DNA from: Escherichia phage EcS1 | Strand: one strand, 5' to 3' | Sequence record: NC_055721.1 | DNA: 64,000 bases | Part shown: positions 8,364 through 13,060 of the stretch, in pieces | Position numbering within the stretch: position 1 is the stretch's first letter | Layout of the letters: each line of letters opens with the position of its first letter | The notes under the pieces: generated by a model | What the model saw: the letters and a program-made list of their open reading frames with translations, nothing else | What the model was told of the DNA's origin: nothing | Databases searched by the model: none | Translations under genes and position numbers: made by a program

Positions 8364-8525
8364 GTCTTTGTATAAACGTTCTAAGTAAACATGCTCCATC
8401 GGTTTAACGATTTCGCCTTGTTTCAATAATTGTGTTTGAATAGGATTCAAATTATAAAATTTGATCACATCTCTGAGATCTTGTTCGCTATAATTAAAAG
8501 TTCCTACTTCTACTCCGATTTGCAT
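8355..8525 (-). CDS. hypothetical small protein (56 aa)
   Basis: Small ORF between tRNA genes, not in the supplied track (below its length cut-off); stop overlaps the tRNA-Arg 5' end. Confidence 0.25.
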   Translation of the reverse strand: MQIGVEVGTFNYSEQDLRDVIKFYNLNPIQTQLLKQGEIVKPMEHVYLERLYKDGA

Positions 8526-8537
8526 AAGTATCCTTTT

Positions 8538-8624
8538 TGGAGCTAGGAGTGAGATTCGAACTCACGAAAGCATAACGCTACTGGATTTGCAATCCAGCGC
8601 CTTTGACCACTCGGCAATCCTAGC
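8538..8624 (-). tRNA. class II-type tRNA with anticodon GCA (Cys) and U73 discriminator
   Basis: 87 nt; acceptor GCTAGGA/TCCTAGC, Ser/Tyr-like D-arm GCCGAGTGGTCAAAGGC, anticodon stem CTGGA/TCCAG with loop TTGCAAA, 15-nt variable arm, T-loop TTCGAAT. Confidence 0.5.
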
Positions 8625-8989: not shown

Positions 8990-9436
8990 TTATCCTTGAA
9001 GCATTTCACGAACACGATAAAGATTAGAACAGAATTCTTGTTCAGTTAGAACAGTTTCATTCTTTTTATTCTTACCCATGCTATGAGTTAATGTTGAGTT
9101 ACGCGTAGCTAGGAGTGCTCTCTTGAATCCTTCATTCAAAGCCAGAGAATCATATGCTCGCTGAATTAAAGACGTATAGGCTATACTTTGACGTAAAATA
9201 GGGACACCTTTCCAGTACAACGTTTGGGTGCGCCACCAGTTCTTTTTCTTACCTTTGAACTTAGCTTTCTTACCAACTAATGTACAGACATGCTCTTGCA
9301 TTTCTACTGAAGAAAACTTCAATGATTGCAAGAAACCTTCCATTGATGCACACTGTACTCCATCAATTTCGAAAGCATGAGGAGCAAAGTTACTTAATGC
9401 ACAACTTGGGTACATTGAACCTGAACCAATATCCAT
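8990..9436 (-). CDS. NADAR-domain protein (YbiA/DUF1768-like)
   Basis: LSNFAPHAFEIDGVQCASMEGFLQSLKF and FKRALLATRNSTLTHS match conserved NADAR blocks (compare E. coli YbiA FSNFAAWPIKVDGKTWPTSEHYFQAQKF and LRALLLATAPAKLVEHT). Confidence 0.65.
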   Translation of the reverse strand: MDIGSGSMYPSCALSNFAPHAFEIDGVQCASMEGFLQSLKFSSVEMQEHVCTLVGKKAKFKGKKKNWWRTQTLYWKGVPILRQSIAYTSLIQRAYDSLALNEGFKRALLATRNSTLTHSMGKNKKNETVLTEQEFCSNLYRVREMLQG

Positions 9437-10324: not shown

Positions 10325-10401
10325 TGGTGGCCCTTGTCGGAGTCTAACCGACCTTACACCAGTTATGAGCTGGGCACTTTCACACGAAAGTATAAAGGGC
10401 C
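10325..10401 (-). tRNA. tRNA-Met-like (anticodon CAT), non-canonical D and T loops
   Basis: 77 nt with perfect acceptor stem and CCA, anticodon loop CTCATAA; D-loop lacks GG and T-loop is TTAGACT. Confidence 0.4.
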
Positions 10402-11102: not shown

Positions 11103-11177
11103 TGGTGGGAGCTGTTGGTAACGATCCAACCTCTCGAGCTCTTCAGGCAAGCGCTAATCCGTCTCAGCTAAACTCCC
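11103..11177 (-). tRNA. tRNA-Phe-like (anticodon GAA), weakened anticodon stem
   Basis: 75 nt, acceptor GGGAGTT/AGCTCCC plus ACCA; anticodon loop CTGAAGA; two mismatches in the anticodon stem and an atypical T-loop. Confidence 0.4.
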
Positions 11178-11967: not shown

Positions 11968-12043
11968 TGGCTAGAGCGCTTGGATTCGAACCAAGGAATA
12001 CCAGAATCAAAATCTGGTGTCGTAACCGCTTGACTACGCTCTA
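11968..12043 (-). tRNA. tRNA-Gln (anticodon TTG)
   Basis: Perfect acceptor TAGAGCG/CGCTCTA, anticodon arm CCAGA-TTTTGAT-TCTGG, T-loop TTCGAAT, CCA encoded. Confidence 0.7.
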
Positions 12044-12045
12044 AT

Positions 12046-12121
12046 TGGAGGCGAGTGATGGAATCGAACCATCGCGTAAAGGGATATGAACCCTTTATTC
12101 TACCACTGAAGTTAACTCGCT
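12046..12121 (-). tRNA. tRNA-Met (anticodon CAT), initiator-like features
   Basis: Anticodon loop TTCATAT closed by three consecutive G-C pairs (GGG/CCC); 1-72 position is an A-C mismatch; T-loop TTCGATT; CCA encoded. Confidence 0.55.
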
Positions 12122-12248
12122 ATTGTCCGGGTTCTCGAAGTAAAAACAAGTAGCTTGATGTAGAACACATAAAGTGGGAACAACTCACTTCATCTCCTAG
12201 CATTATTGTATGGAGACTCAAACTCATCTTCAAGAACTGCTTCGTATT

Positions 12249-12475: not shown

Positions 12476-12552
12476 TGGTGGGACATCATGGACTCGAACC
12501 ATGGACACCCGGATTAAAAGTCCGGTGCTCTAACCAACTGAGCTAATATCCC
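12476..12552 (-). tRNA. tRNA-Lys (anticodon TTT)
   Basis: Anticodon arm CCGGA-CTTTTAA-TCCGG, T-loop TTCGAGT, CCA encoded. Confidence 0.7.
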
Positions 12553-13060
12553 ATAGATATTTATCTATAAATCTCTTAGCTTGAGTATGACTTATATTTA
12601 AACTTTTACTAAACTTGGTTAATGCACCTCGTTTAGTAAAATCTATTAAATTATAAGCTTCAATTCTAGAAGCAATTTCTTCTTCAGACAAAACCAAAGC
12701 ATGGTTTTCTGAAATCTTTTTACGAGATTCTGTTGTATGTGACATACCAGTAAAACCAAGAGTAGGTTTTAGTCTACCATTAGCTTTAGCGTCTTGTGCA
12801 TTTTGTTTATTTGTCGCACAATAAATGTTTTCTAATGAATAAGGACCTATATCGCCTTTACGACACATGCAATAATCCAAACTTGCTTTACCACGTAAAT
12901 GATATTTACCTGTTGATTTCCACCAAGTAAACCACTCATCAAAAGTTAGATTAAATTCAATACCACGAGCTTTGGCATGAACTTTTTGCATACGGTACTT
13001 TTCATAATCTTCCATACAACTCTCACAAATTGGCAGTGCCGACGGGATTCGAACCCGCAT
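12530..13060 (-). CDS. putative HNH-type homing endonuclease with NUMOD-like and HTH-like C-terminal motifs
   Basis: CxxC plus Cys/His-rich N-terminal region (CESC...DYCMCRKGDIGPYSLENIYCATNKQN), NUMOD3-like GFTGMSHTTESRKKISENH, C-terminal HTH-like segment; both ORF ends overlap tRNA genes, so the true start is probably the internal Met at about 13015. Confidence 0.45.
   Translation of the reverse strand: MRVRIPSALPICESCMEDYEKYRMQKVHAKARGIEFNLTFDEWFTWWKSTGKYHLRGKASLDYCMCRKGDIGPYSLENIYCATNKQNAQDAKANGRLKPTLGFTGMSHTTESRKKISENHALVLSEEEIASRIEAYNLIDFTKRGALTKFSKSLNISHTQAKRFIDKYLWDISSVG

What the first reader, a model, noticed from the sequence alone, without database searches (positions are those of the whole stretch)
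12046..12121. Second CAT-anticodon tRNA with initiator hallmarks
Besides the aberrant tRNA-Met-like gene at 10325..10401, this tRNA has anticodon CAT closed by three consecutive G-C pairs in the anticodon stem and an unpaired 1-72 position (A-C), the two classical signatures of bacterial initiator tRNA. A phage-encoded initiator tRNA would be unusual and could sustain translation initiation if the host initiator pool is attacked or limiting.
Basis: partly seen in the sequence, partly recalled or inferred. Interest (0 to 1): 0.45.

Follow-up and report, generated by a model that had tools for sequence, protein, structure and literature searches.

The report
Divergent initiator-like tRNA in T4-like phage
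This is a real, well-conserved phage tRNA gene with a methionine anticodon that carries the two structural marks of a bacterial start-codon (initiator) tRNA on an otherwise remodelled body, so it most likely lets the phage supply its own initiator tRNA, although this has never been tested in the laboratory.

Summary
The gene lies on the minus strand at 12046..12121. It has anticodon CAT, an unpaired A1xC72, pairs G29:C41, G30:C40 and G31:C39, discriminator U73 and an encoded CCA.

It is the only one of 17 tRNAs in the window with either initiator hallmark. Among 320 non-CAT phage tRNAs sampled, none has both.

The window comes from a T4-like phage (Straboviridae). 88 phage genomes carry a homolog, always annotated plain "tRNA-Met". 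In 15 distinct homologs every helix pairs 100%, with compensatory changes at 10 pairs, while 1:72 is never paired. G2:C71, C3:G70 and G4:C69 are invariant and the GGG/CCC block is fixed.

The tRNA of Aeromonas T4-like phage Aes508 bridges this family to canonical initiators and sits in the same gene order.

Against a clean call:
- My three covariance models give elongator Met 48.1 bits, initiator 39.0 and Ile2 37.3.
- A11:U24 and A73 are absent.
- The D-stem carries a bulge.

It is not Ile2, and a separate Ile2-like gene lies at 10325..10401.

Verdict: a probable functional initiator tRNA (about 0.6), a divergent variant of a known kind.

The parts
12046..12121 (-). tRNA gene, anticodon CAT, 76 nt including encoded CCA
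   Evidence: ARAGORN; Rfam RF00005 at 44.1 bits; 100% identical to the tRNA-Met of Erwinia phage Virsaitis27, with homologs in 88 phage records
12121..12121 (-). Position 1 (A), unpaired with C72
   Evidence: In 15 distinct homologs position 1 is U (12) or A (3) and never pairs with position 72
12050..12050 (-). Position 72 (C), unpaired with A1
   Evidence: C in 14/15 homologs, A in 1
12115..12120 (-). Acceptor stem 5' strand, positions 2-7 (GCGAGU). G2:C71, C3:G70 and G4:C69 are minor determinants for formylation
   Evidence: All six pairs are 100% paired. Pairs 2:71, 3:70 and 4:69 are invariant and 5:68, 6:67 and 7:66 covary. Determinants as listed in PMC9976931 and PMC6265465
12051..12056 (-). 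Acceptor stem 3' strand, positions 66-71 (ACUCGC)
12046..12049 (-). Discriminator U73 plus encoded CCA
   Evidence: U73 and CCA are present in 14/15 homologs. A73 is found in 43/44 bacterial initiators
12091..12093 (-). G29 G30 G31, the 5' side of the three consecutive G:C pairs
   Evidence: G30:C40 and G31:C39 are invariant and G29:C41 is kept in 14/15, while 27:43 and 28:42 covary freely
12081..12083 (-). C39 C40 C41, the 3' side of the three G:C pairs
12086..12088 (-). Anticodon CAT (positions 34-36)
12084..12084 (-). U38, where host initiators have A38. Enteric VapC cuts tRNAfMet between A38 and C39
   Evidence: Loop residues 33-38 (UCAUAU) are invariant in the family. All 44 sampled bacterial initiators have CUCAUAA, but the scan pattern that collected them required CTCATAA, so that count is not independent evidence. 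VapC cleavage site from PMC4105405
12097..12112 (-). D-arm, read as A10:U25, a bulged C (12111), U11:A24, U12:A23, C13:G22, with loop AGUGGUA
   Evidence: With the bulge, all 4 pairs are standard in 15/15 homologs and 10:25 covaries (A:U to C:G). ARAGORN's alternative drawing has a C11xA24 mismatch
11968..12043 (-). tRNA-Gln(UUG), 2 nt downstream on the same strand (context; probable dimeric precursor)
   Evidence: The same Met-Gln adjacency is seen in CC31, Marfa, CkP1, Kpn6N and PM2
10325..10401 (-). The second CAT-anticodon tRNA (context), an Ile2-like gene that fills the Ile2 role
   Evidence: Acceptor GGCCCTT/AAGGGCC gives C4:G69 and C5:G68. Scores are Ile2 42.5, Met 39.9, initiator 12.6 bits. 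A conserved counterpart exists in Aes508

Best explanation
This is a functional phage-encoded initiator-type methionine tRNA. It is a diverged member of an initiator tRNA lineage carried by T4-related phages.

Inferred mechanism:
- The gene is transcribed with the minus-strand tRNA cluster and processed together with the adjacent tRNA-Gln. CCA is encoded.
- The host MetRS charges it through the CAU anticodon.
- The unpaired 1x72 end, with G2:C71, C3:G70 and G4:C69, lets the host formyltransferase formylate it and keeps it away from EF-Tu and peptidyl-tRNA hydrolase.
- IF2 delivers it to the 30S P site, where the three G:C pairs of the anticodon stem pass the IF3/16S rRNA check.

The net effect is that the phage adds to, or replaces, the host initiator tRNA pool during infection.

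Shown here: the gene, its fold, the conservation and covariation, the hallmark features, and the relationship to other T4-like phage initiator-type tRNAs. Inferred and untested: charging, formylation, P-site use and any benefit to the phage.
For: 1. Both hallmarks are present and specific. No elongator CAT tRNA among about 60 sampled bacterial ones has GGG/CCC or a genuine 1:72 mismatch. None of 320 non-CAT phage tRNAs has both.

2. The pattern of selection fits an initiator. In 15 distinct homologs from 7 or more phage genera, all four helices pair 100% and 10 pairs show compensatory changes (0/500 shuffles reach this). Position 1:72 is unpaired in 15/15, through three different combinations (UxC 12, AxC 2, AxA 1). 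G29-31:C39-41 is fixed while the two pairs above it take up to five pair types. So the mismatch and the G:C identity are themselves under selection, not just the pairing.

3. The formyltransferase determinants G2:C71, C3:G70 and G4:C69 are invariant (determinants from PMC9976931, and PMC6265465).

4. There is a bridge form. Aeromonas T4-like phage Aes508 has a tRNA with the same unusual end (U1xC72, U73, CCA) and the same U38. It also has a canonical initiator D-arm (A11:U24) and the E. coli initiator anticodon stem UCGGG/CCCGA. It scores initiator 61.6 vs Met 51.4 bits. Its gene order, Met(i) - odd GGCCC CAT tRNA - gp30.3 - tRNA-Arg, matches the order of these genes in the window, where other tRNA genes and ORFs lie between them. 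Other T4-like phage initiator-type tRNAs (Vibrio D479, Aeh1, S-PM2) score 83-90 vs 66-72 and also have a pyrimidine at 73.

5. The CAU anticodon suffices for MetRS (PMC9976931).

6. The Ile2 role is already filled by the gene at 10325..10401.
Against: - My covariance models do not call it an initiator. This copy scores initiator 39.0, elongator Met 48.1, Ile2 37.3. U1-type relatives tie at about 48-54 vs 47-52. True initiators exceed the Met model by 12-30 bits.
- A11:U24 (44/44 bacterial initiators) is replaced by U11:A24 next to a bulge, or by a C11xA24 mismatch.
- A73 (43/44), a minor formylation and MetRS determinant, is U73.
- The D-arm resembles that of a widespread phage CAT-tRNA class (GTTCAGTGGTAGAAC) whose members mostly have a paired 1:72 and no three G:C pairs.
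- Apart from the Ile2-like gene at 10325..10401, this is the only CAT tRNA found in the window and in the annotated stretches of relatives. So an elongator role cannot be excluded on grounds of redundancy.
- There are no expression, charging or formylation data.
Confidence: 0.6

Rival explanations
1. It is an elongator tRNA-Met. The phage supplies ordinary Met decoding, and the odd acceptor end and G:C-rich anticodon stem are lineage quirks without initiator function.
For: The elongator-Met model gives the highest score for this copy (48.1 vs 39.0). U11:A24 is the elongator-type Y11:R24. The D-arm matches a phage CAT-tRNA class that mostly has a paired 1:72. The distant relatives FBB1 and PJNS034 have A1:U72 and score as Met (72.2 vs 64.0 and 66.8 vs 54.6). 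Every database record calls it tRNA-Met.
Against: A 1:72 mismatch kept in 15/15 variants through three different base combinations, when a single substitution would restore a pair, argues for selection for the mismatch. Established work summarised in PMC6265465 shows that a mismatch there disfavours EF-Tu. No sampled bacterial elongator CAT tRNA has GGG/CCC. The Met-model score of 48 bits is far below true elongator Met tRNAs (84-92 bits), so it is not a positive identification. The initiator-minus-Met score difference (-9 to +4) is higher than for most other elongators in the cluster (-13 to -28, with tRNA-Pro at -5).
Confidence: 0.2
2. It is a dual-function tRNA-Met. Partial formylation, caused by weak determinants (U73, no A11:U24), splits the pool between IF2 (initiation) and EF-Tu (elongation). 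This is how the single mitochondrial tRNA-Met works, and how engineered E. coli tRNAfMet mutants work.
For: The features are hybrid, and the covariance scores tie between the initiator and Met models. Apart from the Ile2-like gene at 10325..10401, it is the only CAT tRNA found in these phages' tRNA clusters. PMC6265465 shows that acceptor-stem mutants of tRNAfMet can sustain E. coli for both roles.
Against: The dual-function E. coli mutants all gained a 1:72 base pair (G72 or U1), whereas this family keeps a mismatch. There is nothing to measure the formylation level.
Confidence: 0.1
3. It is tRNA-Ile2. C34 is converted to lysidine by host TilS and the tRNA reads AUA.
For: It has a CAT anticodon in an A+T-rich phage (38% G+C) that would use AUA often. 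From memory, T4 itself carries such a tRNA-Ile.
Against: The Ile2 model gives the lowest score (37.3). E. coli TilS reads C4:G69 and C5:G68, and inverting 4:69 nearly abolishes activity in Burkholderia TilS (PMC11947777). This tRNA has G4:C69 and A5:U68. A separate gene with the GGCCC acceptor lies at 10325..10401 and scores best as Ile2.
Confidence: 0.03
4. It is a decaying or non-translational tRNA-like gene, such as a pseudogene, a decoy for host nucleases or a processing signal.
For: The general tRNA score is low (44.1 bits, among the lowest in the cluster). The D-stem is irregular. Phage Moon lacks the TCCA end.
Against: Pairing is 100% with compensatory changes at 10 pairs across genera. 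The conserved tertiary nucleotides U8, A14, G18, G19, A21 and the T-loop GGTTCGA are intact. CCA is encoded in 14/15.
Confidence: 0.03

Closest known systems
Bacterial initiator tRNAfMet (E. coli metZ/W/V and metY, and 44 sampled bacterial initiators)
   Same: CAU anticodon; non-Watson-Crick 1x72; G2:C71, C3:G70, G4:C69; three consecutive G:C pairs at 29-31:39-41; encoded CCA.
   Different: - The mismatch is A1xC72 (or U1xC72 in relatives), not CxA, CxC, CxU or UxU.
- The discriminator is U73, not A73.
- There is no A11:U24, and the D-stem has a bulged nucleotide.
- The loop is UUCAUAU, not CUCAUAA.
- Global identity to E. coli tRNAfMet is only 58%, and there is no blastn match to any E. coli tRNA.
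- It scores 39 bits on the initiator model, against 62-104 for the held-out bacterial initiators (E. coli tRNAfMet 103).
Initiator-type tRNAs of other T4-related phages (Aeromonas phages Aes508 and Aeh1, Vibrio phage D479 and the 'fMet' tRNA reported for the Schizotequatrovirus core genome, cyanophage S-PM2)
   Same: - It sits in the tRNA cluster of a T4-like phage.
- It has a pyrimidine at 73.
- With Aes508 specifically, it shares U1xC72 (in the U1-type relatives), U73-CCA, GGG/CCC, U38 and the order of these genes (Met(i), then the odd CAT tRNA, then gp30.3, then tRNA-Arg).
   Different: Those tRNAs keep the canonical initiator D-arm (A11:U24) and score clearly as initiators: 62-90 bits against 51-72 on the Met model. 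This family has a replaced or remodelled D-arm and ties.
Elongator tRNA-Met (E. coli metT/metU)
   Same: CAU anticodon, G2:C71, C3:G70, pyrimidine11:purine24, and the best (though weak) covariance score.
   Different: Elongators have a paired 1:72 (G:C or G:U in 19/19 sampled), no GGG/CCC, and A73. True members score 84-92 bits, against 48 here.
tRNA-Ile2 (lysidine tRNA; E. coli ileX)
   Same: CAT in the gene.
   Different: It lacks C4:G69 and C5:G68 and scores lowest on the Ile2 model. The phage has a separate Ile2-like gene.
Dual-function tRNA-Met (mammalian mitochondria; engineered E. coli tRNAfMet mutants, PMC6265465)
   Same: It mixes initiator and elongator features, and it is the only candidate Met tRNA in the gene set.
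   Different: The known dual-function bacterial mutants have a paired 1:72. This tRNA keeps the mismatch.

Membership tests
Bacterial initiator tRNA (tRNAfMet) | CAU anticodon | tested here: met
Bacterial initiator tRNA (tRNAfMet) | No Watson-Crick pair between positions 1 and 72 (the major formyltransferase determinant; excludes EF-Tu) | tested here: met
   A1xC72. Unpaired in 15/15 homologs. Bacterial initiators show CxA, CxC, CxU or UxU, so the base combination here differs
Bacterial initiator tRNA (tRNAfMet) | Three consecutive G:C pairs, G29:C41, G30:C40 and G31:C39 | tested here: met
   Kept in 14/15 homologs, with PM2 having A29:U41. Five of 44 bacterial initiators also have A29:U41
Bacterial initiator tRNA (tRNAfMet) | G2:C71, C3:G70 (and G4:C69) in the acceptor stem | tested here: met
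   Invariant in 15/15. Many elongator Met tRNAs share 2:71 and 3:70, so this is weakly discriminating
Bacterial initiator tRNA (tRNAfMet) | Purine11:pyrimidine24 (A11:U24) | tested here: not met
   U11:A24 beside a bulge, or C11xA24 in ARAGORN's drawing. A11:U24 is present in 44/44 sampled bacterial initiators
Bacterial initiator tRNA (tRNAfMet) | Discriminator A73 | tested here: not met
   U73. A73 is present in 43/44 bacterial initiators. All four T4-like phage initiator-type tRNAs examined also have U73 or C73
Bacterial initiator tRNA (tRNAfMet) | Highest score on an initiator-specific covariance model | tested here: inconclusive
   This copy scores 39.0 (initiator), 48.1 (Met) and 37.3 (Ile2). 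Relatives tie. All are far below true members. Held-out controls classify correctly. tRNAscan-SE itself was not available
Bacterial initiator tRNA (tRNAfMet) | Formylated Met-tRNA, IF2 binding and P-site initiation | not testable with these tools
   Needs biochemistry or genetics
Elongator tRNA-Met | Paired 1:72 allowing EF-Tu binding | tested here: not met
   19/19 sampled elongator Met tRNAs have G:C or G:U
Elongator tRNA-Met | Highest score on an elongator-Met covariance model, at member level | tested here: inconclusive
   It is the highest of the three scores but only 48.1 bits, against 84-92 for held-out members
tRNA-Ile2 (lysidine) | Acceptor-stem identity pairs for TilS (E. coli: C4:G69, C5:G68) | tested here: not met
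   G4:C69 and A5:U68. Identity rule from PMC11947777
tRNA-Ile2 (lysidine) | Highest score on an Ile2 covariance model | tested here: not met
   Lowest of the three at 37.3 bits
T4-like phage initiator-type tRNA lineage (Aes508 type) | Shared derived acceptor end (U/A1 x C72, U73, CCA), U38, GGG/CCC, and the same relative position in the tRNA cluster | tested here: met

The most novel reading that the evidence does not exclude
The tRNA is a nuclease-proof replacement initiator. Its body (D-arm, U32/U38 loop, U73) has been remodelled away from the host tRNAfMet, while the few features the ribosome and the formyltransferase need are kept. T4-like phages of Enterobacteriaceae could then keep initiating translation when host defences cut or inactivate the host initiator.

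Two such defences are reported: enteric VapC, which cuts between A38 and C39, and the P2 OLD tRNase, which depletes fMet, Thr(UGU), Gly(UCC) and Pro(UGG) tRNAs. The phage carries its own copy of all four.

If true, this would contradict the published statement that enteric phages avoid encoding the VapC target.
Probability: 0.25. Interest if true: 0.7.

Novelty: new variant of a known kind. Interest (0 to 1): 0.42.

Why it matters
If this tRNA really initiates, a large group of T4-like phages carries a hidden initiator tRNA that current annotation labels simply as tRNA-Met. The group spans Karamvirus, Jiaodavirus, Kanagawavirus, Moonvirus, Winklervirus, Mosugukvirus and Marfavirus, whose hosts include Klebsiella, Enterobacter, Citrobacter, Serratia and Erwinia.

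That bears on the current debate over why phages carry tRNAs: codon supply, or escape from host tRNA-cutting defences. Initiator tRNA is a known target of VapC toxins and, according to a 2026 preprint, of the P2 OLD nuclease.

The tRNA is also a natural experiment in how much of the initiator body can be changed (no A11:U24, no A73, a bulged D-stem, U38) while the 1x72 mismatch and the three G:C pairs are kept. That is relevant to engineering orthogonal initiator tRNAs.

Tried and rejected
- **blastn against E. coli genomes.** The tRNA gave only 28-nt T-arm matches to plasmid tRNAs, so there is no host relative to lean on.
- **First IMG/VR pattern scan.** The pattern had one N too many and returned chance matches. 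It was repeated correctly.
- **Per-position log-odds, initiator vs elongator.** This proved unreliable. Bacterial initiators are so uniform that any lineage-specific base is heavily penalised: the anticodon stem of this tRNA scored 'elongator' despite GGG/CCC, while PM2 scored 'initiator'. I discarded it.
- **Whole-sequence identity.** All comparisons fall at 57-75%, so it does not discriminate.
- **Shifted acceptor-stem registers.** I considered starting the tRNA at G2, or treating C72 as the discriminator. These break the other six pairs or misplace CCA, so I rejected them.
- **ARAGORN's D-stem with a C11xA24 mismatch.** I replaced it with a bulged-nucleotide reading, which gives four standard pairs in 15/15 sequences and explains the 10:25 covariation.
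- **Promoter and terminator scan around the gene.** There is one promoter-like site at 12233..12205(-), but the counts do not exceed those of shuffled sequence, so no claim is made.
- **Database annotations.** They are uninformative, because every tool and record writes 'tRNA-Met' for any CAT tRNA.

Full report
**What is there.**
ARAGORN finds 17 tRNA genes on the minus strand between 8120 and 13284, one of them tRNA-Met(cat) at 12046..12121. Rfam's general tRNA model matches it at 44.1 bits, one of the weakest scores in the cluster. Read on the minus strand the gene is AGCGAGTTAACTTCAGTGGTAGAATAAAGGGTTCATATCCCTTTACGCGATGGTTCGATTCCATCACTCGCCTCCA.

ARAGORN's drawing and an unconstrained ViennaRNA fold (-22.2 kcal/mol, z = -2.86) agree. 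A1 and C72 are unpaired. Positions 2-7 pair with 66-71. The anticodon stem ends in G29:C41, G30:C40 and G31:C39 above the loop UUCAUAU. The discriminator is U73 and CCA is encoded.

**Is it more than chance?**
Within the window, no other tRNA has an unpaired 1:72 or GGG/CCC at these positions. I collected 368 distinct tRNAs from related phage loci and from IMG/VR contigs. Of the 320 with other anticodons, 5 have a 1:72 mismatch, 4 have GGG/CCC and none has both. Of the 48 with CAT, 15 have both.

A scan of bacterial genomes for CAT tRNAs gave 112 distinct genes. The 44 initiators all have a 1x72 mismatch (CxA, CxC, CxU or UxU) and A11:U24. 43 have A73. 38 have GGG/CCC, 5 have AGG/CCU and 1 has UGG/CCA. 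None of the roughly 60 elongator-type CAT tRNAs has GGG/CCC or a genuine 1:72 mismatch.

**Where the window comes from, and the family.**
The region matches T4-like phages (Straboviridae, Tevenvirinae), best Serratia phage LC53 and Erwinia phage Virsaitis27. The tRNA is 100% identical to Virsaitis27's, and homologs occur in 88 phage records. These infect Enterobacter, Klebsiella, Citrobacter, Serratia, Erwinia, Cronobacter and Pectobacterium, and all annotated copies are called tRNA-Met.

I aligned 15 distinct sequences and counted pairs:
- All four helices are 100% paired, and 10 pairs show changes on both sides. No shuffle out of 500 reaches this, and slid controls give 42-49% pairing.
- Position 1:72 is unpaired in 15/15, as UxC (12), AxC (2) or AxA (1).
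- G2:C71, C3:G70 and G4:C69 never vary.
- G30:C40 and G31:C39 never vary, and G29:C41 varies once (A:U in PM2). The two pairs above them take two and five pair types respectively.
- Loop residues 33-38 (UCAUAU) are invariant.

The D-arm is best read as A10:U25, one bulged nucleotide, then U11:A24, U12:A23 and C13:G22. That reading gives standard pairs in 15/15 and explains an A:U to C:G covariation at 10:25.

This is a functional tRNA under purifying selection. Selection acts on the mismatch and on the G:C identity, not merely on pairing.

**Initiator, elongator or Ile2: the covariance test.**
tRNAscan-SE was not available, so I built three covariance models from the bacterial sample: initiator (39 sequences), elongator Met (16) and Ile2 (28). 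I split Met from Ile2 by acceptor-stem type, anchored on E. coli metT and ileX. That split is my own assumption.

Held-out genes classify correctly:

| Gene | Initiator | Met | Ile2 |
|---|---|---|---|
| E. coli tRNAfMet | 103 | 74 | 60 |
| E. coli metT | 56 | 88 | 82 |
| E. coli ileX | 38 | 83 | 90 |
| Target (this window) | 39.0 | 48.1 | 37.3 |
| U1-type relatives | 48-54 | 47-52 | 38-43 |

All target scores are far below member level. The initiator-minus-Met difference for the family is -9 to +4. It is +12 to +30 for true initiators, -5 to -28 for the other tRNAs of the cluster, and about -18 to -32 for true elongator Met tRNAs.

So the model test is ambiguous. It clearly rejects Ile2 but does not decide between initiator and elongator. 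A paper on Shigella phage Sf14 reports similarly inconsistent isotype scores for phage tRNAs, which suggests such models transfer poorly to diverged phage tRNAs.

**Ile2 rejected.**
E. coli TilS uses 4:69 and 5:68 as identity pairs, and inverting C4:G69 nearly abolishes activity in Burkholderia TilS (PMC11947777). E. coli ileX has C4:G69 and C5:G68. The target has G4:C69 and A5:U68. The other CAT gene, at 10325..10401(-), has GGCCCTT/AAGGGCC and scores best on the Ile2 model.

**The link to recognised phage initiators.**
blastn with E. coli tRNAfMet finds initiator-type genes in 358 phage records. These include Mycobacterium cluster C1 phages, Caulobacter phages, Lak phage, and the T4-like Aeromonas phages and cyanophage S-PM2. 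All that are annotated are called tRNA-Met.

Four T4-related examples were retrieved and scored:

| Phage | Acceptor end | Initiator | Met |
|---|---|---|---|
| Vibrio D479 | A1:U72, U73 | 90 | 72 |
| Aeh1 | U1:A72, U73 | 84 | 66 |
| S-PM2 | C1xU72, C73 | 87 | 68 |
| Aes508 | U1xC72, U73, CCA | 62 | 51 |

Aes508 is the bridge. Its sequence is TGCGATG-TA-GAGG...CCTC-G-UCGGG-CUCAUAU-CCCGA...CATCGCC-T-CCA. It has the canonical initiator D-stem (A11:U24) and the E. coli initiator anticodon stem. It also has exactly the acceptor end (U1xC72, U73, CCA) and the U38 of the family studied here. UxC at 1:72 and U38 do not occur in any of the 44 bacterial initiators, and U73 occurs in none of them (43 have A73 and one C73), but that sample was collected with a pattern requiring CTCATAA, so only the 1:72 and 73 comparisons are independent.

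Gene order supports common descent. Aes508 has tRNA-Asp, this tRNA, an odd GGCCC-type CAT tRNA, gp30.3 and tRNA-Arg. The window has the same elements in the same order: 12121, 10401, the Pfam Phage_30_3 ORF at 9436..8990, and tRNA-Arg at 8364. The Asp-Met adjacency recurs in CC31, CkP1 and Kpn6N.

The family is therefore most simply a descendant of a T4-like phage initiator tRNA whose D-arm has been replaced or remodelled.

**How it most likely works.**
Established knowledge, as cited in the papers read:
- The CAU anticodon is sufficient for MetRS (PMC9976931).
- The formyltransferase recognises chiefly the unpaired 1-72, assisted by A73, G2:C71, C3:G70 and G4:C69, with R11:Y24 also noted (PMC9976931; PMC6265465).
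- Even a U1:A72 mutant is formylated nearly normally and is a poor elongator.
- The three G:C pairs direct P-site binding.

The phage tRNA has the major formylation determinant and three of the four minor acceptor determinants, plus the P-site determinant. It lacks A73 and R11:Y24.

I infer that it is charged with Met, formylated (perhaps less efficiently than the host tRNA) and used by IF2 and the 30S subunit for initiation. I put this at about 0.6. An elongator role (0.2) or a split role (0.1) remains possible. The split role is less likely because the known dual-function E. coli mutants all acquired a 1:72 pair.

**Why a phage might carry it.**
This part is speculative. Enteric VapC toxins cut tRNAfMet between A38 and C39 (PMC4105405), and the family has an invariant U38. 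[quoted passage not shown] The window encodes Thr(tgt), Gly(tcc), Pro(tgg) and this CAT tRNA. The eLife 2023 hypothesis paper says phages of enteric hosts generally avoid encoding tRNA-fMet, and this family may be an overlooked exception. None of this is tested.

**Novelty and verdict.**
Phage-encoded initiator-type tRNAs are already on record by prediction, so the kind is known.

Several things are new here:
- A widespread enterobacterial T4-like tRNA annotated as 'tRNA-Met' carries conserved initiator hallmarks on a strongly diverged body.
- It has no blastn match to E. coli tRNA genes, and initiator-specific covariance models score it ambiguously.
- It shares a distinctive pyrimidine-73 acceptor end with other T4-like phage initiators.

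I file it as a new variant of a known kind, of moderate interest.

Noticed in passing
window 10325..10401 (-): A second CAT-anticodon tRNA that ARAGORN and Rfam both miss. Its acceptor GGCCCTT/AAGGGCC carries the TilS identity pairs C4:G69 and C5:G68. The D-loop lacks GG and the T-loop is TTAGACT (A56 instead of C56). It scores best on my Ile2 model (42.5 bits). Aeromonas phage Aes508 has a counterpart with the same odd D-loop and T-loop, so the unusual elbow is conserved and the gene is probably functional.
   Followed up: partly
window 11106..11177 (-): A tRNA found only by Rfam (36 bits). It has a GAA (Phe) anticodon and two mismatches in the anticodon stem. The homolog in Serratia phage LC53 is annotated tRNA-Phe.
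   Followed up: no
window 8538..8624 (-): A tRNA-Cys(GCA) of 87 nt with a long variable arm, a Ser/Leu-like D-arm and U73. A class-II-shaped cysteine tRNA is unusual.
   Followed up: no
window 12530..13060 (-): A 176-aa ORF wedged between tRNA-Lys and tRNA-Asp, overlapping the ends of both. It matches phrog_16521 (unknown function) and, weakly, an HNH endonuclease family, so it is possibly a homing endonuclease inserted in the tRNA cluster. Relatives carry different inserts at neighbouring sites: a Yad-anchor protein in LC53 and seg-like GIY-YIG endonucleases in Merci and Aes508.
   Followed up: partly
L198-L201 (Aeh1, Aes508, S-PM2, Vibrio phage D479): All four T4-related phage initiator-type tRNAs examined have a pyrimidine discriminator (U73 or C73), whereas 43 of 44 sampled bacterial initiators have A73. 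This looks like a lineage trait of phage initiators. I have no explanation for it.
   Followed up: partly
L159, L163, L164, L167, L170, L186, L187, L191, L193-L195 (IMG/VR contigs): A widespread class of environmental phage CAT tRNAs shares the D-arm GTTCAGTGGTAGAAC and the loop TTCATAT. Its members have U1:A72, A73 and a conserved A31xC39 mismatch at the base of the anticodon stem. Their role (initiator, elongator or other) is unclear.
   Followed up: no
L007 200..272 (Citrobacter phage Moon): Moon's copy of the tRNA lacks the TCCA end: ...ACCCGCC is followed by AAATT. It either relies on CCA addition with A73 or is decaying.
   Followed up: no
window 12205..12233 (-): A sigma-70-like site (TTGAAG, 17 nt, TACAAT) lies about 85 nt upstream of the tRNA. 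The region's count of such sites is not above that of shuffled sequence, so no claim is made.
   Followed up: no
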